13,639 nucleotides of DNA from Candidatus Hydrogenedens sp. (GTDB lineage Bacteria; Hydrogenedentota; Hydrogenedentia; Hydrogenedentales; Hydrogenedentaceae). Numbering within the stretch: position 1 is the stretch's first letter; each line of letters starts with the position of its first letter. This document shows, piece after piece, positions 1,868 through 13,639 of this stretch. The stretch covers positions 1-13,639 of the forward strand of contig JBMFRC010000036.1 of assembly GCA_049968235.1 (NCBI GenBank), written 5' to 3'. Under the pieces are notes generated by a model. It did not search any database. It was not told the origin of the DNA and saw only the letters and a program-made list of their open reading frames with translations. Made by a program: the position numbers and the translations under genes.

Positions 1868-2335
1868 ATGCTACGGCATAGTGGAGAAAAATTAATTGTT
1901 CAAAATCGCCGTGCTCATTTTGATTATGAAATATTTGAGCGATATGAAGCAGGGATTTCATTAAAAGGGACAGAGGTAAAGTCACTGCGAACTTCAGGTA
2001 GTATGTCCATACAGGATGCCTATGTGGATTATGAGGGAGGAGAACTATTCCTTGTGAATGCATATATTCGTCCTTATGAGCAGGGGAATATCTTGAATCA
2101 TGACCCCCATCGTGAAAGAAAATTATTACTTCATAAACGCGAGATAATCCGATTGGGAAAAAGGATTGAAGAAAAGGGTTTAACTTTAATTCCGTTACGG
2201 GTTTATTTTAAGAATGGTCTGGTAAAAGTGGAAATAGGATTGGGTCGTGGTAAGAAGGTTATAGATAAACGAGAAGATATAAAAAAGAAGGAAACACAGA
2301 GAGAAATTGAACGGGTTGTAAAAAGATTCCGATGA
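1868..2335 (+). CDS. smpB: SsrA-binding protein SmpB (trans-translation)
   Basis: 155 aa. It contains NRRAHFDYEIFERYEAGISLKGTEVKSLR (E. coli SmpB has [28 protein letters not shown]), DPHRERKLLL (E. coli DPTRTRKLLL) and GKKVIDKREDIKKKE (E. coli GKKQHDKRSDIKERE), plus the basic C-terminal tail typical of SmpB. Confidence 0.93.
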   Translation: MLRHSGEKLIVQNRRAHFDYEIFERYEAGISLKGTEVKSLRTSGSMSIQDAYVDYEGGELFLVNAYIRPYEQGNILNHDPHRERKLLLHKREIIRLGKRIEEKGLTLIPLRVYFKNGLVKVEIGLGRGKKVIDKREDIKKKETQREIERVVKRFR

Positions 2336-3499: not shown

Positions 3500-6154
3500 T
3501 TATAAATAGTTTTTTAAATTTTTAATTAGTGTATTAATATTATAGGGTTTTGTTAAGAAACCTTGAATAGGAAAGTCTATGTCATTTTCGCTGAAGGTAT
3601 GTTGTAAAAATCCTGTGCTGAGGAAAATAGGGAGATTGGGAAATTCGGAACGAATGATTCGTGCAACATCTGTCCCATCTAAATGAGGCATTGTTATATC
3701 TAAAATAATAGCAGAAAATTTATTTTTATGTTCGTTAAAGAGTTGAAGAGCCTCCCGACCATCCTTGGCTGTAATTACTGTAAACCCGAGTTTTTCAAGC
3801 ATCTTTGTGGTAACCTGAAGGACAACAGGTTCATCATCCGCAAAAAGAATGAGCCCCTTTCCTTTCCATGAGGATAAATTGTTGATTTCACGGGGCTGTT
3901 CTTCTATTCCATGGATTGCGGGGAAGAATAATTTAAATGTGGTTCCTTTTCCTACTTCACTGTAAACTTTTATTGTCCCACTATGTGCCCGGATAATGCC
4001 CATGATAGTGGCTAATCCCAAACCTCTACCGGTATCTTTTGTAGTGAAAAACGGGTCAAATATTTTTGACATCGTTTCAGGGGGCATACCACAGCCATTG
4101 TCAGACACTTCCATGTAAATATATTTTTTCTTCTCTATTCCTTCCTGAAACCATGTTGTCCGTATATAACTCTCTGTAAAATCTACTACCCCTGTTTTTA
4201 TACGAATAACACCACTTCGATTGCCTATGGCATCAGAGGCGTTGATAACAAGATTTACAAGCACAGAACGGAGTTGCCCTATTTCTCCGTTGATAAGTGG
4301 AAGTTCAGGGTCAAACTGGAAATCTAATAATATTTTTTTAGAGATACTAACCTTTAATAAATGCTCTGTTTCTTTAATAATGTGATTTAAATTACAAGGT
4401 TGATAAGGTTGTTGCTTTTTTCCGGCAAAAGTGAGTAACTGCCGGCATAATTCTCCGGCATCCTTAATGGTTTCTTCTATATTCTGCAGATAATTTGCTA
4501 TAGCAGATGGTTTATTTATTTCCGCTCTGGCTAATTCCGCATGTCCCATAATTGCCATAAGGTAATTATTAAAATCGTGGGCTACTGAACTTGAAAGTAC
4601 CCCTAAACTTTCTAATTTTTGTATATGTTGAATTTGTTTCTGGAATTGTTTTTTCTCTTCTTGAACTTTTTTTATTTCTGAAATATCTCGAAACAGAATA
4701 AGAATTAAGGGAATTCTATTTGAGAAACGAACAAAACGGTGGATGACCCGTAAAGTTAATGGATTTCCTTTCTTGTTTTTCTCTATGATTTCAACTTCTA
4801 TTAAGGGGTGTGTATCTTCGCTTTGAGAAATTTTTTTATTTAATTCGGGAGCGAAGTTTTCTATTGGTTTGAAGAGGACTTCATCAATGTCCCATCCTAA
4901 TATTTCTTCACTGGTTTTATTCCAGAATTCAATGTTACCTTCTTCATTAATTGCGATAATTCCAATGGGGGCTGAATCAATGAGAGTTTTTAACAAAGAC
5001 ATAGTTTCGTTAAGGGTATTAATCAATGATTTTAATTCGGTAATATCTTCATACATTCCTAACACACCATAAGGGACACCCCCAGGACCCATAAGGGGTA
5101 TTTTGCTTGTCCTTAGCCATAGTTGTTTACCATCAGGGGTCGTTTGTGGCTCTTCATAAAATATTTTAGGTTTTCCCGAAGTAATCACTTCACGGTCATC
5201 CTTACGATAAATCTCTGCTTCAGATTTCCATGGCAGTTCGAAATCTGTAGTCCCGATAACTTCCTCAGGACTATTTTTGCCAGCATCTTTTGCAAAAGCA
5301 AGATTACAACCTAAATAATGAAGATTTTTGTCTTTCCAGAATACACGGACAGGTAGTAAATCAAGGACAATCCGCAGAAACTTCATTGCTTTTTCTTTTT
5401 CCTCGTCTTTTGCTTCTCTTTCATCTAAGTTCTCGATATGAACGAAGAAACCATAAAGGGAATCCGAATTATTTTCTGGAATTGGAATTAGATGAACAAG
5501 AGCCCTAAAAGTAGAATGGTCTTTTTTTATGTAAATTTTCTCGAATACAAAAATTTTATTAGTGGATGAAAACGGTTGCTTTAATACTTCATTGAAAAGA
5601 GTTAATTCCTGGGCAAGATTTTCATATATGGTTAAGTCCTGCCATGTGAGTTTTAGTAATTCATCTCTGGTAAAGCCCAAAAGGGAGCATAAAGCAGGGT
5701 TTGCTTCAACCCAATAGCCTGCTATATTAGTAATACCTATCGGGATTTTGATTTGCTGTATGAAATTGTATATGAGAGGATGTTGATAAAAGGGGCTTTT
5801 CGGTTCAGGGAGTATATGGGTGTAGTCATACAAAGTAAGAATATCGTTTTGAGGATTTAATTCAGATTTTTCGATGGTTAGATGACACCAGAAATATTTG
5901 TTTTTTCTGTTATTGAGCCAGAGTTTAAAATGGTTATCCGATGTAATAATATTATTTCTGTAATGTTGTAGAAATTTTCTGATAGATTCCTTTTGAGGTT
6001 CAAAAATCCAATCTATAAAGTAAGTATTTTCAAATTCTTTAAAGTCTAAATCTAGGAAATCAAGTTCGTCGGATTGAACCCGTTCTATTTTTCCTTCCTG
6101 GTCTAATAATATTGTAAAGACTTTTGGTAAAAACGATATTTGCATGAAAACCAC
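3500..6154 (-). CDS. Hybrid sensor histidine kinase: cytoplasmic, multiple PAS/PAC domains, HisKA + HATPase_c, C-terminal CheY-like receiver
   Basis: 884 aa with no obvious TM segments. There are repeated PAS-like blocks. The H-box is [21 protein letters not shown]. The ATP-binding G-boxes are DNGCGMPPE...FDPFFTTK...[11 protein letters not shown]...[12 protein letters not shown] receiver domain follows ([11 protein letters not shown]...[14 protein letters not shown]...IFLSTGF, with the phospho-acceptor Asp inside ILDITMP). The track start is a GTG at 6154; an in-frame ATG at 6145 (MQISF...) is an alternative start. Confidence 0.9.
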
Positions 6155-7651: not shown

Positions 7652-8998
7652 TTAAAATACACATGCAAGAAATTTATCTTCTATAATTTGAGCAGGATGA
7701 TTATCCATAAAAAAATTATTACCTACACCGGCTTTGTTTATTATGAATTCGTCCCTTTGAGTTCCTTCCATATCAAAAGAACGATATATCAGCCGATTAC
7801 TTATACCTTTTTCTATAGTAATAATTTGGTAAGTGGGAATTTTCTCAAATGCTATTTCAATAATTTCTGTTTTCTCTTGTTGCTCGTAGGATTTTGTTCC
7901 TGAAAAGGATATTACATAATAAGTGCCCTCTGTGGGAGAAACTTTTTGGTTATTTTTTAATGGATATGTTCGCCAATAAGAATGGTCATGCCCTTGAAAT
8001 ACTATATCTACATGATATTGGTCTATTAATGGAAGCCATGCGTCCCTTAAATGTTTGTTATCTCTTCTTGGTGCGGAACTGTAGAAAGGTTGATGAAATA
8101 ACAAGAATTTCCAGAGAGACGAAGACCCTGAAAGTTGATGTTCCAACCAGGGGACTTGCTGTTCTGGATTATGGTTGGCGTTTAAGATTATAAACTGTGC
8201 ATTTAGGTATTTGACTGAATAACAAAATTCGCTGGTGATGTTTGCGGGTCCGTTTGTGGGCAGGACAAAGAAATCGAGATACATCTTAGGTAAAAGAGGA
8301 TTTGATTTATATTCATGGTTACCAATGGTCGGAACTATAGGATATTGGGCAAAGATATTATCTGCATAATGGAAAAAGGCATCCCAATCATCCCTTTCAT
8401 TCCCTCGATTTACAAGGTCGCCTGCCATTAAAATAAAGGAACAATCCGGACATTTTTCAATAGATTTTTTTAACAATTTTCCCCATTCTTCCAGACCATT
8501 TTGGGCATCACCTAAATAAATAAAAGAAAAAGTTTTTGCCTGAGTAGGTTCTGTTTTAAAGGTGTACCAATCACTCCATATTTCTAAATTGGGATTTCCT
8601 ACACGATATTCGTAATTTGTATTGGGTTCTAATGAATTGAGTGTAACAAACCAACGATAAATTTCCGGATTATTCTTTAAAGAAGGGTCGATAATAGAAA
8701 TGAACTTTGCAGATGTTCTTTTCGTCGATTCCTTATTTTGTTCTGTTTTCTTGTGCCATTCCACAATGCCTTCTTTGACTTCCGGCGATGTACTCCACTG
8801 AATTGTCATAGAAGTTGATGGAGTTTCTGTAAGGGTGAGTGTGATTTGTGCTGGAACTTGAGTAATAGGGAAGGGTGTCTCTCTATCTGGAGGGGTTTTT
8901 ACATCAGCAAATATGGGAGCGATAGCAGTTAGAAGAGTTATAAAGAAAATGAGGGTATAAACAAAAATACTAACATTTAAATTTTTGACTCTTATCAT
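7652..8998 (-). CDS. Secreted purple-acid-phosphatase-like calcineurin-type metallophosphoesterase with an N-terminal FN3-like domain
   Basis: 448 aa with a signal peptide/TM segment (IFVYTLIFFITLLTAIAPIFA). The ~100-aa N-terminal region resembles the PAP N-terminal domain (QWSTSPEVKEGIVEW...NTNYEYRVG). The metallophosphatase motifs are YLGDAQNG, AGDLVNRG, IGNHEY, LLFHQPFY and FQGHDHSYWR (the GHxHxYER type of purple acid phosphatases). AAAGGA RBS. Confidence 0.85.
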   Translation of the reverse strand: MIRVKNLNVSIFVYTLIFFITLLTAIAPIFADVKTPPDRETPFPITQVPAQITLTLTETPSTSMTIQWSTSPEVKEGIVEWHKKTEQNKESTKRTSAKFISIIDPSLKNNPEIYRWFVTLNSLEPNTNYEYRVGNPNLEIWSDWYTFKTEPTQAKTFSFIYLGDAQNGLEEWGKLLKKSIEKCPDCSFILMAGDLVNRGNERDDWDAFFHYADNIFAQYPIVPTIGNHEYKSNPLLPKMYLDFFVLPTNGPANITSEFCYSVKYLNAQFIILNANHNPEQQVPWLEHQLSGSSSLWKFLLFHQPFYSSAPRRDNKHLRDAWLPLIDQYHVDIVFQGHDHSYWRTYPLKNNQKVSPTEGTYYVISFSGTKSYEQQEKTEIIEIAFEKIPTYQIITIEKGISNRLIYRSFDMEGTQRDEFIINKAGVGNNFFMDNHPAQIIEDKFLACVF

Positions 8999-9069
8999 GT
9001 TTAATCCTTTTCAGTGAAGGTGAGAAGATAAATAAGAAATAACTTATCTATTAGATAAAGAATAATTTA

Positions 9070-9083
9070 AAAAAGTTTCAAAA
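9070..9083. repeat. Exact 14-nt direct repeat AAAAAGTTTCAAAA, copy 1 (copy 2 at 9457-9470). Together the copies bracket the G-rich island.
   Basis: Both copies were read directly from the sequence. Copy 2 is part of a tandem CAAAAAGTTT-CAAAAGTTT (9456-9474). A fourth CAAAAAGTTTA occurs at 9629-9639. Confidence 0.5.
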
Positions 9084-9208
9084 ATTAATATGCTAACTGA
9101 AACTGTACATGAAAAGAATGGGGAAAGTAATTGTTAAAGGGAAATTTTAAATTATTGTAACTTTTTTTTAATATTGATTGTTGTATTTTTTTTCCCTATT
9201 TAAAAAAG

Positions 9209-9401
9209 ATGCGCACGGGCATTACTATCGGAACAGGCATAGGAGGGGGGGATAGGAGCCCGTGCGCTGGGGAGGGTACTGTGCAGGGTAGTGAGGGCTG
9301 TGTGTGTGGTAATAAGTTAATTGTACCTGTGGTCTGGGTTGGGAGGAAGGCCAGATTTAGCAGGGCAACGTTTGTTAAACTTACCTCACTTTCTTCACAG
9401 G
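9209..9401 (+). ncRNA. Candidate structured RNA or regulatory element: a G-rich island inside a ~1-kb AT-rich intergenic region. Class unknown and strand uncertain.
   Basis: There is an abrupt composition shift to G-rich sequence. A 10-bp perfect inverted repeat GCGCACGGGC (9211-9220) / GCCCGTGCGC (9258-9267) encloses a 37-nt loop. G-tracts lie at 9269-9297, a G7 run at 9245-9251 and (TG)5 at 9299-9308. Secondary pairings are CCTGTG 9326-9331 with CACAGG 9396-9401 and TCTGG 9333-9337 with CCAGA 9351-9355. The overlapping 69-codon ORF has no RBS and a codon usage unlike the rest of the window. Confidence 0.3.
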
Positions 9402-9456
9402 AAAATATTCAAATTTAATAGAGCAATTATCTATTTTATTTATACTATAAACGCCC

Positions 9457-9470
9457 AAAAAGTTTCAAAA
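9457..9470. repeat. Exact 14-nt direct repeat AAAAAGTTTCAAAA, copy 2. It is embedded in a tandem CAAAA(A)GTTT x2.
   Basis: Read directly from the sequence. See the copy at 9070-9083. Confidence 0.5.
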
Positions 9471-9982
9471 GTTTACAATTCTTTTGTGTAAAAATCTATA
9501 AAAATTAAATATCATTAAATTTTATATAACTTTCACTCAATATTATAGCACAAAAAATTCATAAAATCAAATTTTTTAACAAAAATTTACATATCAATTA
9601 TAATAAAATAATTTGGTCTTTTATTCCTCAAAAAGTTTATATTTATTTAAAAATTATTGGAAATAGATTCACAAAATTTGTTTTTGACTATCCACTCGTT
9701 GAATAAAATCCAAAAGATTTTTTAGTTGTTTTGAAAGGATTTAAGAATAAATTATACAACAAAAAATAATGATAATTTACGATGAATGTTCGAAAGACTA
9801 TTTCAAAGATAGGAATTTAAATAATTTATTTTAATTTTGTAGGTGATATGCTATTACTACCCTTTAATATTAAAGTATAAGGGATAATGGATATAATAAA
9901 AATAATCGACATTATAGTGGCTATATTTTTTATAATCAATTTTATCTCAGTGATTTATTTCAAAAACAGGTAAGTTTTTAGT

Positions 9983-9988
9983 TATAAT
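9983..9988 (+). promoter_or_regulatory. Candidate sigma-70-type -10 hexamer TATAAT, ~20 nt upstream of the fliM start region
   Basis: Perfect TATAAT at 9983-9988. Only a weak -35 is found (TTCAAA/TCAAAA about 17-19 nt upstream). The AAAGGA RBS at 9994-9999 and the fliM ATG at 10009 would give a very short leader. This is a sequence-only call and is weak because AT-rich DNA makes chance TATAAT common. Confidence 0.2.
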
Positions 9989-10008
9989 CAAATAAAAGGA
10001 TTGTAGCG

Positions 10009-11013
10009 ATGGCAGATATTTTGAGCCAGGAAGAAATAGATTTATTATTAGGTTCTGTTACAACGGGAACTGTTGATACAGTCAAAAAAGAGGAACAAGA
10101 GGGCGAGCAAAAAGTTAGTGCTTATGATTTTCGCAGACCGGAACGTATTTCTAAAGAGCAGTTAAAGGGTTTACAAAGTATTTTTGAGTCCTTTGCCCGT
10201 GAACTTACAATAGTGCTCCCTCCATATTTTCGGACTATAGTCCGTGTTGACCTTATATCTATTGACCAATTAACTTATGATGAATTCATTCTTGCAATTT
10301 CCAGACCTACCTGTCTTGTCGTAGTTAATATGTCTCCATTAGATGGAGCGGGAATTTTAGAATTAAGTCCAACTGCTATTTTCCCAATAATTGACCGTGT
10401 ATTAGGGGGTAAAGGAAAGATATTACCTGAATTGCGAGAATTAACAGAAATAGAAGAGAGAATTATCGGGCGTATCGTAGAAATGATGTTGAGTTGTCTC
10501 AAAAGGGCATGGGAACAGGTTATCGAATTGAACTCTCGCGTTGAATCAATAGAAAGTGACCCGTTGATTGTTCAAATTGTTGCGGGTAGTGAGATGACTA
10601 TTCTCGTCAGTTATGAAATTCATGTTGGCGAAAACACAGGGACTATTAATTTTTGTATTCCTTTGATGGTAATGAATCCTCTTTTAGACCAGATATCCAA
10701 AATGGCTCATTATGCCCATCGAGTTAGTCCTGAAGAGGCAGAGTTAACACGTATTATGTTATTAAAACTTTTATTGAATGCCCCGATTAAATTGGATACA
10801 ATTTTAGGACGAGTAAATGTTGAGATGAGTGATTTAGTCGATTTGAAAGAGGGGGATGTTTTAGTGTTGAATAGAAAAATTGAAGAGCCTATTGTTGTTG
10901 AGATTGAAGGTTTACCAAAACTAAAAGGAACCATTGGTAGAAGAGGAGAAGAAATGGCATTGCGTATCTGTTCCATAATTCGGGATGAAAAAAATCCTGA
11001 AAATTATCTGTAA
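10009..11013 (+). CDS. fliM: Flagellar motor switch protein FliM
   Basis: 334 aa. The N-terminal CheY-P-binding peptide is MADILSQEEIDLLLG (LSQxEIDxLL). It is followed by YDFRRPERISKEQLKGLQSIFESFAR, which is FliM family. It has a CheC-like middle domain and a C-terminal FliN-like region. AAAGGA RBS 9 nt upstream. Confidence 0.93.
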   Translation: MADILSQEEIDLLLGSVTTGTVDTVKKEEQEGEQKVSAYDFRRPERISKEQLKGLQSIFESFARELTIVLPPYFRTIVRVDLISIDQLTYDEFILAISRPTCLVVVNMSPLDGAGILELSPTAIFPIIDRVLGGKGKILPELRELTEIEERIIGRIVEMMLSCLKRAWEQVIELNSRVESIESDPLIVQIVAGSEMTILVSYEIHVGENTGTINFCIPLMVMNPLLDQISKMAHYAHRVSPEEAELTRIMLLKLLLNAPIKLDTILGRVNVEMSDLVDLKEGDVLVLNRKIEEPIVVEIEGLPKLKGTIGRRGEEMALRICSIIRDEKNPENYL

Positions 11014-11026
11014 AGGAAGATGTTCG

Positions 11027-11965
11027 ATGAGATTAAACGAAATAATTGATTTGTTTTTCAAAGGTCTGGATGATGTTTTGTTATCTTTAGGAATAGGGGG
11101 AAATAAATATAAGATTCATGCAACAAAAATTATTGGGATAGAGGATATTCAATCTACCTTAAATGAGCAAAGTATTGTATTATGGGGAAAAGTTGAAAAA
11201 AATCAGGGTATATTGTTGTTATGTATGAACAGTGATGATGTCCGTGCATTAGTAGGGGCTGTTGAAGGAACAGTTCCTGAAGAAATAAATGAGACTGTTA
11301 TAAGCACATTGAAGGATTTGGGAGATGCATTTTTAGGGGGTGCCTTGAGTTCTCTTGCACAGTCTGCTAAAAAAGGTGTAGTACAGTTTGAACTTACAGG
11401 AATCCGGAAAGGGGAAGAAATATTTGACGCATCGTTTTATTCCCAAATTCAAGAGCCGGTCATATGTGGCTCCGTTGCGGTAGAAGGTAATATAAACTTT
11501 TCGTTCCCATGGATAGTAGTATTAGATAATCTTCTGAAAACATGGTTTCCCATAGATGAGGAAAAAGCAGGTGTAGAAGAGACTATGTTGACACAGGAAG
11601 AAATAGAATCGTTTATTAACAATGAAGTAATAAAACCAGAAACAAAGAAAGAAGAACAAACTACAGGAGCAAAACCCGTGAGTAAAAAATCAATAGATTC
11701 GGGTTACCGTAATTTGGATGTTATCTTGGATATTCAGGTGGAAGCCACAGCCCGATTGGGGAGTGTGCAAATGCCTCTAGCAACAGTGTTAAGTTTAGGG
11801 CCCGGTTCTGTAATCAATGTCGGACATGAGGTTGACAATCCCATTGAATTGTATGTGAATAATAAATTAATTGCCAAAGGCGATGTGGTTATCGTAGATG
11901 AAAAATTTGGTATTCGAATAACAGAAATTGTAAGTCCCCAGGAACGGATAGAGAGTTTACAGTGA
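11027..11965 (+). CDS. fliN: Flagellar motor switch protein FliN/FliY-like: an extended N-terminal domain plus a C-terminal FliN (SpoA) domain
   Basis: The C-terminal ~80 aa (LDVILDIQVEATARLGSVQMPLATVLSLGPGSVINVGHEVDNPIELYVNNKLIAKGDVVIVDEKFGIRITEIV) is the FliN/SpoA surface-presentation domain. I prefer the ATG at 11027 because AAGGAAG lies 7 nt upstream and it is just after the fliM stop. The longest ORF starts at 10985 and overlaps fliM by 29 nt, but it has no RBS. The N-terminal ~220 aa may have a degenerate CheC-like fold (EEIN is present but the full D/S-x3-E-x2-N-x22-P motif is not). Confidence 0.8.
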   Translation: MRLNEIIDLFFKGLDDVLLSLGIGGNKYKIHATKIIGIEDIQSTLNEQSIVLWGKVEKNQGILLLCMNSDDVRALVGAVEGTVPEEINETVISTLKDLGDAFLGGALSSLAQSAKKGVVQFELTGIRKGEEIFDASFYSQIQEPVICGSVAVEGNINFSFPWIVVLDNLLKTWFPIDEEKAGVEETMLTQEEIESFINNEVIKPETKKEEQTTGAKPVSKKSIDSGYRNLDVILDIQVEATARLGSVQMPLATVLSLGPGSVINVGHEVDNPIELYVNNKLIAKGDVVIVDEKFGIRITEIVSPQERIESLQ

Positions 11966-13083: not shown

Positions 13084-13639
13084 ATGACATTACTGGTTAT
13101 AATCACATGGTTGGGTGTTCTCCTTATTGTGTTGTGCTTATTTTACTATGTATGGGATGACCGTAATAAAAGAAAACTTCATGAACATCGCCGGGTAGAA
13201 ATCAGTGAATTAGCCATGGTCTTTCAAACTTTGAGGGATGTTGTTTCAGAACAGAAAATACTGGCGAAAGAATTCAATGAACAGGTAGAAGAAAAAATAA
13301 CATTAATTCGTGGTATTGTAAATGAAGCCCAGAATAAGGTGAAGCAGATACAGCAGGAAATATATGAGCAATCTAAAAAACTAAACGAATTACAGGAACA
13401 AATGGATAGGATTATATGTCAAAAGAATGCCTTAAATGCTTCATCTACAAGTGATATTTATTCCATAGGAACAGTCTCCATTATAGAAGCAGAATCTATA
13501 TGCGAAAAATTAAATGAAAAAATGGAAGGTAATAAGAATATAATACAAGAAATGCCATTGGAAGAAATTAAAGAAATAAGTAAAACAGAAGATGAAAAAC
13601 TTTTAATAAATTTAGGAGAGGAACAGAAAAATATACGAG
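13084..13639 (+). CDS. Hypothetical membrane-anchored coiled-coil protein, 3'-truncated by the window end; not in the supplied ORF track
   Basis: The ATG at 13084 opens frame 1 with no stop to the window end (185+ codons). There is an N-terminal TM helix (MTLLVIITWLGVLLIVLCLFYYVW) followed by heptad-like coiled-coil sequence rich in Q/E/K (NEAQNKVKQIQQEIYEQSKKLNELQEQMDR...). It runs in the same orientation as the flagellar genes, 30 nt after the preceding ORF. Confidence 0.5.
   Translation, partial: MTLLVIITWLGVLLIVLCLFYYVWDDRNKRKLHEHRRVEISELAMVFQTLRDVVSEQKILAKEFNEQVEEKITLIRGIVNEAQNKVKQIQQEIYEQSKKLNELQEQMDRIICQKNALNASSTSDIYSIGTVSIIEAESICEKLNEKMEGNKNIIQEMPLEEIKEISKTEDEKLLINLGEEQKNIR

What the first reader, a model, noticed from the sequence alone, without database searches (positions are those of the whole stretch)
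8999..10008. Unusually long (~1 kb) extremely AT-rich divergent intergenic region with recurring CAAAAAGTTT motifs between the phosphatase and flagellar operons
The phosphatase gene (- strand, start 8998) and fliM (+ strand, start 10009) are separated by 1010 bp of non-coding, A/T-tract-rich, probably intrinsically curved DNA. This is far longer than the 20-110 bp gaps elsewhere in the window. The exact 14-mer AAAAAGTTTCAAAA occurs twice (9070-9083; 9457-9470) and brackets the G-rich island. The second copy is part of a tandem CAAAAAGTTT-CAAAAGTTT, and CAAAAAGTTTA recurs at 9629-9639. This pattern suggests multiple binding sites for a nucleoid-associated or flagellar/phosphate regulator, or relic terminal repeats of a small inserted element carrying the island. 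The usual fliL gene upstream of fliM is absent and is replaced by this region.
Basis: seen in the sequence. Interest (0 to 1): 0.5.

Follow-up and report, generated by a model that had tools for sequence, protein, structure and literature searches.

The report
Unannotated small RNA beside fliM
The long AT-rich gap upstream of the flagellar gene fliM holds an unannotated small RNA gene on the opposite strand, with its own alternative-sigma-type promoter and terminator, and this arrangement is kept next to fliM in about half of the sampled genomes of the uncultured phylum Hydrogenedentota.

Summary
Its interpretation mostly fails. GC outside the island (17-22%) matches other intergenic DNA in the window (21%). 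An exact repeat of 14 bases or more occurs in 8% of local shuffles. A/T tracts show no helical phasing. The G-rich island is not an insertion.

The island is the 3' core of a minus-strand small RNA gene (about 9444 to 9202). A two-block promoter, TGTAAAC-N17-CGTT (9477-9450), matches the ECF sigma pattern (AAC / CGTT). A strong hairpin plus U6 terminator sits at 9267-9202.

GT[CA]A[AT]C-N17-CGTT has 39 matches in 637 kb; 37 sit at one syntenic site, facing away from fliM. Of 32 members outside the window's own clade, 29 have a hairpin of at least 10 bp 46-74 nt downstream. The left-hand neighbour gene varies.

The RNA is C/U-rich with unpaired CCUCC motifs and has no Rfam match. I infer, without a test, that it represses translation by pairing with ribosome-binding sites, probably within flagellar regulation. 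No transcript data were available.

The parts
9202..9444 (-). Predicted small RNA gene, about 243 nt. The 5' end is inferred at 9444 +/- 3; the 3' end lies in the U-run.
   Evidence: Bounded by the promoter motif and the terminator. 82-89% identical in L003, L004 and L006, while the flanks do not align. The 3' 110 nt is invariant in 10 distinct clade sequences. Not coding: the 69-aa plus-strand ORF is frameshifted in L003 and interrupted by a stop in L006. Minus-strand fold -53.7 kcal/mol, z -4.43, against plus strand z -2.83. No Rfam family and no tRNA or tmRNA.
9450..9477 (-). Alternative-sigma-type promoter: -35 TGTAAAC (9477-9471), then 17 nt, then -10 CGTT (9453-9450).
   Evidence: GT[CA]A[AT]C-N17-CGTT matches 39 times in 637 kb x 2 strands; 37 matches are at the syntenic site upstream of fliM, facing away from it. 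The logo from 42 distinct sites is tGTCAACc-N16-CGTTt. A PWM scan of about 100 kb of clade DNA finds it only here. No -10 box follows GGTTGACA on the plus strand (1 of 33). The ECF consensus is AAC at -35 and CGTT at -10 (PMC7083833, PMC8103513).
9202..9267 (-). Intrinsic terminator: stem GCGCACGGGC (9267-9258) / GCCCGUGCGC (9220-9211), a C-rich 37-nt loop with an inner CUAUC/GAUAG stem, then AUC and U6 (9207-9202).
   Evidence: -25.5 kcal/mol, z -6.5. The equivalent hairpin sits 46-74 nt after the promoter in the 32 members outside the window's clade (182-186 nt in the clade), found in all 36 loci tested. 21 of those 32 have at least 10 bp plus at least 5 T in the next 10 nt, against 11 of 600 control windows. 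A-U to G-C and other compensatory changes occur. G.U pairs occur on the minus strand only.
9268..9279 (-). Unpaired C-rich linker GUACCCUCCCCA, a candidate anti-Shine-Dalgarno seed.
   Evidence: Invariant in the clade. An equivalent CU-rich stretch (CCUCCCC, CCUUCCUC, UCCUCCCU and others) lies directly 5' of the terminator in most members. Its function is inferred.
9331..9352 (-). Conserved CU-rich motif GGCCUUCCUCCCAACCCAGACC, predicted to form a hairpin loop.
   Evidence: Conserved in 10 of 10 clade sequences and duplicated in L090. Lies in the loop of the UCUGG/CCAGA hairpin in the MFE structure.
9279..9400 (-). Long-range helix: CUGUG..GUGAGG (9400-9380) pairs with CCUCAC..CACAG (9297-9279). 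It encloses the clade-specific insertion and a variable (CA)n run at 9299-9308.
   Evidence: RNAalifold consensus on 10 sequences; both sides are nearly invariant, with one C-G to U.G change. In distant relatives the homologous 3' arm (CUACCCUG) closes a short hairpin whose stems covary: GGUAG/CUACC, CAGGUG/CACCUG, GGCG/CGCC, CAUG/CAUG.
9457..9479 (+).
   Evidence: Its reverse complement, TTGTAAACTTTTGAAACTTTTTG, is the -35 box plus spacer of the RNA promoter. Conserved in all clade members.
9533..9620 (.). Clade-conserved block with two near-consensus sigma-70-type hexamer pairs, back to back: minus strand TTGATT-17-TGcTATAAT (9570 to 9542) and plus strand TTAACA-17-TATAAT (9576-9604).
   Evidence: 10/12 and 11/12 matches. 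Conserved in L003, L004, L006, L083, L085 and L088. Its role is uncertain: a second promoter for the RNA, a distal fliM promoter, or both.
9626..9921 (.). Non-conserved AT-rich spacer.
   Evidence: No blastn alignment to any relative. 22% GC. No conserved small ORF. The contigs of two MAGs with identical FliM end inside it.
9959..10008 (+). fliM-proximal promoter-like site TTCAAA-18-TATAAT (9959-9988) and ribosome-binding site AAAGGA.
   Evidence: The last 80 nt or so before fliM are 79-89% identical in L003-L006 and align in L085 and L088.
9070..9083 (+). Left copy of the 14-mer. On the minus strand it reads TTTTGAAACTTTTT, a -35-like TTGAAA upstream of the phosphatase gene.
   Evidence: Present at variable distance in 4 of 8 clade members. 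No CGTT at the right spacing (read from the sequence). Its role as the phosphatase promoter's -35 box is only a guess.

Best explanation
The gap contains an independent small RNA gene on the minus strand, pointing away from fliM.

Transcription is proposed to start about 6-9 nt downstream of a two-block promoter, TGTAAAC-N17-CGTT (9477-9450). Elsewhere in the phylum the promoter reads TGTCAACC-N16-CGTT. This matches the AAC / CGTT pattern of ECF-type alternative sigma factors. Less closely, it also resembles sigma-28 (TAAAcTTT-N12-GgCGtTtA).

Transcription is proposed to stop at a GC-rich hairpin followed by U6 (9267-9202). The RNA is about 243 nt in this genus and about 85-115 nt in other Hydrogenedentota.

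The shared core is a 5' hairpin with a CCCUAC loop, an unpaired C/U-rich stretch, and a terminator hairpin with a C-rich loop, often followed by a CCUCCUUUU tail.

Shown here: conservation, promoter and terminator architecture, strand, non-coding status, and linkage to the fliM-fliN-fliA operon rather than to the left neighbour.

Inferred: the unpaired CCUCC-type motifs pair with Shine-Dalgarno regions (GGAGG) of target mRNAs and block translation, as C-rich motifs do in RsaE/RoxS. Because the gene is locked beside the operon that encodes FliM, FliN and FliA, the RNA probably belongs to the flagellar regulatory circuit.
For: - Conserved block 9200-9625 among relatives, while the flanks diverge.
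- The phosphatase protein is 85, 76 and 69% identical in L003, L004 and L006, while the RNA core is almost invariant.
- Reciprocal nhmmer hits link the window clade and distant members: E 6e-6 to 2e-5 one way and 4e-7 to 2e-6 the other, always upstream of fliM in the same orientation.
- Promoter motif: 37 of 39 matches at one syntenic site; 34 of 72 loci with at least 400 nt upstream have the strict motif 132-484 nt from the fliM ATG.
- Terminator: 29 of the 32 members outside the window's clade have a hairpin of at least 10 bp 46-74 nt downstream. 21 of 32 also have a U-rich tail, against 1.8% of control windows.
- Strand: G.U pairs inside the stems break the plus-strand helix in 15 hairpins, against 5 the other way. 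The 5' region has mean z -1.30 on the minus strand (p 4e-7) against -0.56 on the plus strand. The whole RNA has z -4.43 against -2.83. No plus-strand -10 box.
- Compensatory changes in both hairpins.
- Not coding.
- The left neighbour differs outside the genus.
- FliA/WhiG sigma in the adjacent operon.
- ECF promoter consensus: PMC7083833, PMC8103513.
- C-rich sRNA seeds that target ribosome-binding sites: PMC6158497, PMC5419742.
- Flagellar sRNAs driven by flagellar sigma factors: PMC10578931, PMC11187230.
Against: - No transcript data; the 5' end, 3' end and expression are all inferred from sequence.
- The sigma factor is unidentified. [quoted passage not shown]
- No other copy of the promoter was found in about 100 kb of clade DNA, so no regulon supports the assignment.
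- No target was found. An RNAduplex scan of 22 translation-initiation regions gave nothing beyond background.
- Within the genus the RNA varies too little for covariation: 2 of 40 pairs.
- The hairpin finder was run on the minus strand first, which slightly favours that strand.
- About half of the sampled genomes (those with the most divergent FliM) lack the strict motif.
- The sequences are phylogenetically related, so the p-values are optimistic.
Confidence: 0.7

Rival explanations
1. The functional strand is the plus strand. On this reading a G-rich RNA, or a long fliM leader, carries many GGA / GGAGG motifs in loops. It titrates a GGA-binding protein such as CsrA, in the manner of CsrB/RsmZ, or forms G-quadruplexes.
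For: GGA occurs in the plus-strand version of the terminator loop in every member inspected, and in most linkers (read from the sequences). The orientation relative to fliM is constant. The plus strand also folds better than shuffles, z -2.8. CsrA-FliW circuits control flagellin in several phyla (general knowledge; see also PMC11905337).
Against: - No conserved sequence lies upstream of the island on the plus strand to act as a promoter.
- No U-run follows any plus-strand hairpin; an A-run precedes it instead.
- G.U pairs that hold on the minus strand become C.A mismatches on the plus strand in 15 hairpins.
- The plus-strand z-scores are weaker.
- The two-block motif at fixed 17-nt spacing only makes sense as a minus-strand promoter.
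- No Rfam CsrB/Rsm hit.
Confidence: 0.07
2. There is no stable RNA product. On this reading the conserved block is DNA-level regulatory architecture for the fliM operon: the two-block motif is an operator or a divergent 'decoy' promoter, and the hairpin merely insulates the left neighbour from divergent transcription.
For: The motif keeps a fairly constant distance to fliM, 132-240 nt in most loci. Other conserved motifs lie between it and the fliM promoter. No target or regulon was found.
Against: - The transcribed part, not only the promoter, is conserved; it is nearly invariant over 110 nt in the genus.
- It is recognisably homologous across the phylum.
- Compensatory changes occur in two hairpins, and the 5' region has an excess of structure.
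- An insulator would not need conserved C-rich loops and linker.
Confidence: 0.12
3. One reading: an AT-rich curved region with repeated CAAAAAGTTT sites for a nucleoid-associated, flagellar or phosphate regulator, or the relic terminal repeats of a small mobile element that brought in the G-rich island.
For: The 14-mer occurs twice and brackets the island. AAAAGTTT occurs four times, all in one orientation. A left copy is present in 4 of 8 clade members.
Against: - A repeat of 14 or more arises in 8% of local shuffles.
- The 9629 copy and, in half the relatives, the left copy are not conserved.
- No A-tract phasing.
- The AT content equals that of other intergenic DNA.
- The island is syntenic across the phylum and single-copy in every locus fetched.
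- No inverted terminal repeats or target-site duplication were found around it.
Confidence: 0.04
4. The RNA is real but acts by binding a protein or the ribosome rather than mRNAs. For example, it could mimic the 16S rRNA 3' tail (hairpin followed by CCUCCUUU-3').
For: In L008, L012, L037-L039, L043, L054 and L057 the sequence after the terminator stem is CCUCCUUU(U). L058 and L068 have the variant GCCUCCUUCC. The first form is identical to the anti-Shine-Dalgarno end of 16S rRNA (the 16S sequence is from general knowledge). The window-clade RNA carries several C-rich motifs.
Against: The window clade's own tail is AUCUUUUUU, without CCUCC. C plus U runs are expected next to any terminator in a C-rich RNA. 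There is no evidence for a protein partner.
Confidence: 0.07

Closest known systems
RsaE / RoxS (Rfam RF01820) and other C-rich-motif sRNAs of Firmicutes
   Same: A stand-alone sRNA gene with its own promoter and intrinsic terminator. It has several unpaired C-rich motifs (CCCC / CCUCC) in loops and linkers that could pair with G-rich Shine-Dalgarno regions (PMC6158497, PMC5419742).
   Different: No sequence or structure match (Rfam). Different phylum and a different promoter type (RsaE/RoxS are controlled by SrrAB/ResDE and Rex, from general knowledge). The genomic partner here is a flagellar operon rather than redox or central metabolism. The function here is untested.
Flagellar-hierarchy sRNAs: E. 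coli sigma-28-dependent FliX, MotR, FlgO and UhpU, and C. jejuni CJnc230 (FlmE) and CJnc170 (FlmR)
   Same: Small RNAs wired into flagellar gene expression and transcribed by alternative sigma factors of the flagellar cascade (PMC10578931, PMC11187230). The RNA here is locked beside fliM-fliN-fliA.
   Different: The E. coli RNAs derive from UTRs of flagellar mRNAs. The RNA here is a separate divergent gene. Its promoter does not match TAAA-N15-GCCGATAA. No homology, and a flagellar role here rests on synteny only.
ECF-sigma-dependent sRNAs (E. coli sigma-E-dependent MicA, RybB and MicL; V. cholerae VrrA and MicV)
   Same: Short sRNAs with a Rho-independent terminator, expressed from an AAC / CGT-type ECF promoter (the promoter pattern is from PMC7083833 and PMC8103513; the examples are from general knowledge).
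   Different: Those RNAs repress outer-membrane protein mRNAs through Hfq, with A/U-rich or 5' seeds. Here the sigma factor is unknown, the seed candidates are CU-rich, and the context is flagellar.
sRNAs encoded divergently from their own regulator (OxyS-oxyR, GcvB-gcvA, SgrS-sgrR)
   Same: A conserved head-to-head arrangement of an sRNA gene and an operon that encodes a transcription factor, here the sigma factor FliA. By analogy FliA could drive the RNA.
   Different: This is an analogy recalled from general knowledge, not a test. FliA is the third gene of the operon, and the promoter departs from the sigma-28 consensus at the key CGA of the -10 box.

Membership tests
Any Rfam 15 RNA family (including RsaE, CsrB/Rsm, 6S, tmRNA, SRP, RNase P, riboswitches such as c-di-GMP) | Score at or above the family's gathering threshold with its covariance model | tested here: not met
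   No hit at gathering thresholds in the window or in 16 distant loci. At E<=10 the region gave only noise hits 25-160 bits below threshold. ARAGORN found no tRNA or tmRNA.
Stand-alone bacterial sRNA gene (promoter + short non-coding transcript + intrinsic terminator) | Conserved promoter-like element upstream at fixed geometry | tested here: met
   tGTCAACc-N16-CGTTt logo from 42 distinct sites. 37 of 39 regex hits are at the syntenic site. Recognition by RNA polymerase was not tested.
Stand-alone bacterial sRNA gene (promoter + short non-coding transcript + intrinsic terminator) | GC-rich hairpin followed by a U-run at the 3' end | tested here: met
   Window: 10-bp stem, -25.5 kcal/mol, then U6. 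21 of 32 members against 11 of 600 control windows.
Stand-alone bacterial sRNA gene (promoter + short non-coding transcript + intrinsic terminator) | Not protein-coding | tested here: met
   The plus-strand 69-aa ORF is frameshifted in L003 and has a stop in L006. No minus-strand ORF of 20 aa or more lies inside the RNA.
Stand-alone bacterial sRNA gene (promoter + short non-coding transcript + intrinsic terminator) | A discrete transcript is actually made | not testable with these tools
   No transcriptome data are accessible. This needs RNA-seq or a Northern blot.
ECF (group 4) sigma-dependent promoter | AAC in the -35 box, CGT(T/C) in the -10 box, 16-17 nt spacer | tested here: met
   GTCAAC or GTAAAC-N17-CGTT in most members. 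9 of 42 have GTCATC instead. The spacing from AAC to CGTT is 17. Consensus from PMC7083833 and PMC8103513.
ECF (group 4) sigma-dependent promoter | A cognate ECF sigma / anti-sigma pair and further regulon members with the same motif | tested here: inconclusive
   No second site in about 100 kb of clade DNA, nor in the +/-4 kb flanks of 80 loci. Whole genomes could not be scanned. No ECF sigma gene lies within the window.
Sigma-28 (FliA) dependent promoter | TAAA-N15-GCCGATAA with the conserved CGA in the -10 box | tested here: not met
   The window reads TAAACTTT-N12-GGCGTTTA: 7/8 and 5/8 matches, but CGT rather than CGA and a spacing one nt off. Elsewhere the -35 box is TCAAC. No canonical sigma-28 site at a conserved position in the loci held. 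FliA/WhiG is encoded next door, so an altered specificity is not excluded.
CsrB/RsmZ-type protein-sponge RNA | Multiple GGA motifs in hairpin loops on the transcribed strand | tested here: not met
   The GGA motifs are on the plus strand, which lacks a promoter and terminator and has C.A mismatches where the minus strand has G.U.
Mobile element / MITE with terminal repeats | Terminal inverted or direct repeats, target-site duplication, several genomic copies, presence/absence polymorphism among relatives | tested here: not met
   The only 'terminal' repeat is a 14-mer with P=0.08. It is absent or displaced in half of the relatives. The island is present in all relatives at the same site and once per locus.

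The most novel reading that the evidence does not exclude
This would be a phylum-wide regulatory RNA family not described before. In this reading it is made from a dedicated alternative-sigma promoter placed head-to-head with the fliM-fliN-fliA operon. Its exposed CCUCC motifs (in many members a 3' tail CCUCCUUU identical to the 16S anti-Shine-Dalgarno end) act as an anti-SD mimic. That mimic would couple flagellar assembly to the translation of a set of mRNAs. Possibly it is transcribed by a FliA with altered -10 specificity (CGTT instead of CGAT).
Probability: 0.2. Interest if true: 0.75.

Novelty: new member of a known kind. Interest (0 to 1): 0.55.

Why it matters
Hydrogenedentota has few or no cultured representatives as far as I know. 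Full-text searches found no described regulatory RNA for the phylum. This locus gives a concrete candidate that can be tested. It has defined ends, a sharply defined promoter motif that could identify its sigma factor, and a conserved partnership with the flagellar switch and sigma-28 operon.

It also shows that, in AT-rich genomes, a GC-rich island inside a long 'empty' intergenic region is a good marker for a structured RNA gene. It shows too that a repeated AT-rich word can be a promoter element read on the wrong strand.

If the flagellar link is real, it adds a third, independent lineage, after Enterobacteria and Campylobacter, in which small RNAs are built into the flagellar hierarchy.

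Tried and rejected
- Rfam at gathering and permissive thresholds on the window and on distant members: nothing.
- tRNA/tmRNA search: nothing. SmpB in the window made tmRNA worth checking.
- The simple terminator scan missed the terminator because its loop is 37 nt.
- Protein-coding reading of the island (69-aa ORF at 9209-9418) and of the 28-aa hydrophobic ORF at 9887-9973: rejected. The first has frameshifts or stops in relatives; only the promoter-overlapping half of the second is conserved.
- Plus-strand sigma-70 reading of GGTTGACA: rejected, no -10 box.
- Sigma-54 and canonical sigma-28 readings of the promoter: no match (by eye).
- Target prediction on the 22 translation-initiation regions available: all within background.
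- MAFFT/RNAalifold across subfamilies misaligned the 5' hairpin, so only the terminator pairs could be counted formally. I did not build a covariance model because MAFFT put one arm of that hairpin out of register.
- Curvature proxy (A-tract phasing): not significant.
- Searching for further promoter copies to define a regulon: none in the DNA held.
Full report
**What is at the coordinates**

The window comes from a close relative of Candidatus Hydrogenedens terephthalaticus (Hydrogenedentota, formerly NKB19). FliM is 94% identical to AWNW01000018, and 80 related loci all carry Hydrogenedentota or unclassified-MAG titles.

The gap 8999-10008 lies between a purple-acid-phosphatase-like gene (7652-8998, minus strand) and fliM (10009-11013, plus strand). 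fliM is followed by fliN/fliY-like and FliA/WhiG genes.

**Is it more than chance?**

- Composition: outside about 9202-9444 the gap is 17-22% GC. The other intergenic stretches of the window pool to 21%. The AT-richness is therefore the genome's normal non-coding composition; the 45-53% GC island is the exception.
- Repeat: I shuffled the left AT part, the island and the right AT part separately, preserving dinucleotides. 8% of 2000 shuffles contained an exact direct repeat of 14 or more.
- Curvature: AAA/TTT tracts are not phased at 10-11 bp beyond shuffles.

So the repeat and curvature arguments are weak by themselves.

**Comparison with relatives**

Blastn and MAFFT against the three genus-level genomes in the species collection show one sharply bounded conserved block, 9200-9625, at 82-89% identity. 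The last 80 nt or so before fliM are also conserved. The rest does not align, apart from the left flank in the closest relative, L003. The phosphatase protein is only 85, 76 and 69% identical in the same genomes, so the block is under stronger constraint than its coding neighbour.

A pattern scan of the metagenome collection added six further distinct genus-level sequences. All have the order phosphatase, then island, then fliM.

The 69-aa plus-strand ORF over the island is broken by a 1-nt deletion and a 2-nt insertion in L003 and by a stop in L006. The island is therefore non-coding.

**Deep conservation and strand**

An nhmmer profile of the genus block finds the island's core upstream of fliM in distant Hydrogenedentota whose FliM is 55-59% identical. 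The hits are L012, L016, L008 and L027, with E from 6e-6 to 2e-3. A profile built from seven distant copies finds the genus copies in return (E 4e-7 to 2e-6) and ten more loci. All lie 250-450 nt upstream of fliM and in the same orientation.

Read on the minus strand, every copy has the same layout:
- a short 5' hairpin;
- an unpaired C/U-rich stretch;
- a 10-15 bp GC-rich hairpin;
- usually a U-run.

Upstream on the minus strand there is a two-block motif at fixed spacing, tGTCAACc-N16-CGTTt; in the window it reads TGTAAAC-N17-CGTT at 9477-9450. The regular expression GT[CA]A[AT]C-N17-CGTT has 39 matches in 637 kb on both strands, where about 5 are expected for uniform composition. 37 of them are at this one syntenic position, facing away from fliM. 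34 of 72 loci with enough upstream sequence have the strict motif, 132-484 nt from the fliM start codon; a few more have a one-off spacing.

On the plus strand the first block reads GGTTGACA, a perfect sigma-70 -35 box. Only 1 of 33 loci has a TAnnnT 16-18 nt downstream of it, and no other column there is conserved. That reading is rejected.

The pattern of AAC at -35, CGTT at -10 and a 16-17 nt spacer is the published signature of ECF sigma factors (PMC7083833, PMC8103513).

Downstream of the motif:
- 29 of 32 non-genus members have a hairpin of at least 10 bp starting 46-74 nt later.
- 21 of 32 also have at least 5 T in the next 10 nt, against 11 of 600 random 150-nt windows from the same loci.

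Strand evidence:
- G.U pairs inside the stems break the plus-strand helix in 15 hairpins, against 5 the other way.
- The 5' region folds better than its shuffles on the minus strand: mean z -1.30, p 4e-7. On the plus strand the mean z is -0.56.
- The whole predicted RNA of the window has z -4.43 on the minus strand and -2.83 on the plus strand.

Compensatory changes:
- Terminator stem: G-C to A-U in 5 sequences, C-G to U-A in 2, G-C to C-G in 1.
- 5' hairpin: GGUAG/CUACC, CAGGUG/CACCUG, GGCG/CGCC, CAUG/CAUG, GGAGGAGGGCG/CGCCCUCUUCU against GGAAGAAGGCG/CGUCUUCUUCC, and GGCGCC against GGUGCC/GGCACC. These surround a conserved CCCUAC-type loop.

Outside the genus the left-hand neighbour is a different gene. 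The RNA therefore travels with the fliM-fliN-fliA operon, not with the phosphatase.

**Anatomy in the window (minus strand)**

- Promoter: 9477-9450.
- Inferred start: about 9444.
- 5' hairpin: about 9435-9416.
- Long-range helix: CUGUG..GUGAGG (9400-9380) pairs with CCUCAC..CACAG (9297-9279). It encloses a genus-specific insertion that contains the conserved loop GGCCUUCCUCCCAACC (within 9352-9331) and a variable (CA)n run.
- Unpaired linker: GUACCCUCCCCA (9279-9268).
- Terminator: stem 9267-9258 / 9220-9211 with a C7-containing loop (-25.5 kcal/mol, z -6.5), then U6 at 9207-9202.

The RNA is about 243 nt here, against about 85-115 nt elsewhere in the phylum. The extra length is an insertion into the 5' hairpin plus a 5' extension.

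That explains why it is the only conserved copy.

Further right, 9533-9620 is conserved within the genus. It holds two near-consensus sigma-70-type hexamer pairs back to back: minus strand 9570 to 9542 with an extended -10, and plus strand 9576-9604. They may be a second promoter for the RNA and a distal fliM promoter; I could not decide.

9626-9921 is unconserved filler. 9959-9988 is a conserved fliM-proximal promoter-like site.

**Mechanism**

Shown: a conserved, non-coding, structured unit with promoter and terminator geometry on the minus strand.

Inferred: it is a trans-acting small RNA. Its unpaired segments are C/U-rich in every member (CCUCC, CCCUCCCC, CCUUCCUC, and a C-rich terminator loop). 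In ten members the 3' tail is CCUCCUUU or a close variant. Such motifs are complementary to Shine-Dalgarno sequences. They are the working parts of RsaE/RoxS-type sRNAs (PMC6158497, PMC5419742). The most likely action is therefore translational repression by occluding ribosome-binding sites.

The fixed head-to-head position with the operon that encodes the flagellar switch and sigma-28 suggests a role in the flagellar hierarchy. sRNAs driven by flagellar sigma factors are known in E. coli and C. jejuni (PMC10578931, PMC11187230).

I found no target: 22 translation-initiation regions scored within background. I found no second copy of the promoter. The sigma factor, the regulon and the targets therefore remain open.

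**Comparison with known families**

No Rfam 15 family matches, for either the genus form or the short forms. Full-text searches found no paper on regulatory RNAs in this phylum.

The unit works like a stand-alone sRNA with C-rich seeds, but it is not a member of RsaE/RoxS, CsrB/Rsm or any curated family. The promoter meets the sequence definition of an ECF promoter; the sigma factor itself was not identified. It fails the sigma-28 consensus at the -10 CGA, although the window's version is close: TAAAcTTT-N12-GgCGtTtA.

**Verdict**

The region is long because it houses an unannotated small RNA gene with its own promoter or promoters, plus the promoters of the two flanking genes and about 300 bp of filler.

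This is a new family of a known kind. Interest is moderate to fairly high, because the RNA is conserved across an uncultured phylum and tied to a flagellar operon. It still lacks any expression evidence.

Noticed in passing
window 9851 and 9895 (ends of L002 and L001): Two NCBI MAG contigs with a FliM identical to the window's (GCA_049971155, GCA_049969095) both end inside the unconserved AT-rich spacer, 116-160 bp upstream of fliM. L005 ends 237 bp upstream. This suggests assembly breaks caused by low coverage or strain variation in about 20%-GC DNA. It also means the RNA gene is missing from, or separated in, those assemblies.
   Followed up: partly
L008, L012, L016, L017, L018, L026, L028, L036, L037, L040, about 40-130 nt upstream of fliM (locus coordinates about 3870-3960): The fliM promoter region is conserved across the phylum: cTTGCG-N17-TGnTATACTCGCGCC. 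About 40 nt further upstream lies another conserved motif, GTATCT-(N)-CTCAAAAtAAA-(N)-CCTTA. The window's ACTCAATATTATAGC (9535-9549) resembles its middle part. It may be a site for a flagellar regulator.
   Followed up: partly
window 9299-9308 and 9243-9249: Two simple repeats inside the RNA vary in length among close relatives. The (CA)n run has one extra unit in L003 and L090. The C run in the terminator loop is C6 in L003, L004 and L085 and C7 in the window and the other relatives. This may be assembly noise or slipped-strand variation.
   Followed up: no
window 13084-13639 (partial) = L001 3192-3989: Downstream of fliA and a 109-aa ORF with no family hit lies a 265-aa protein. It matches DUF6115 and DUF2802 and has a C-terminal sigma-70 region-4 / LuxR-like helix-turn-helix. 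It is a possible additional flagellar transcription factor encoded in the same operon.
   Followed up: partly
window 10985-11013 and 11962-11965: fliM overlaps the 326-aa FliN/FliY-like gene by 29 nt, and that gene overlaps fliA by 4 nt. This suggests translational coupling of switch proteins and sigma-28 in one operon.
   Followed up: no
window 1868-2335: SmpB is encoded here, but no tmRNA gene lies anywhere in the window (ARAGORN and Rfam both negative).
   Followed up: yes
L058 about 2600-2650 and L068 about 3630-3680 (minus strand, just 3' of the RNA's terminator hairpin): In these two members the tail is GCCUCCUUCCCCAAC without a U-run. It is followed by a second very strong hairpin (GAGGAAUCCCG.../GUGUGGAAUCCUGG...). 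The RNA may be longer there, or be terminated differently.
   Followed up: no
This is a -35-like TTGAAA, 18 nt upstream of TATCTA and about 70 nt before the phosphatase start codon. It could be that gene's promoter, which would explain its recurrence at variable distance.
   Followed up: partly
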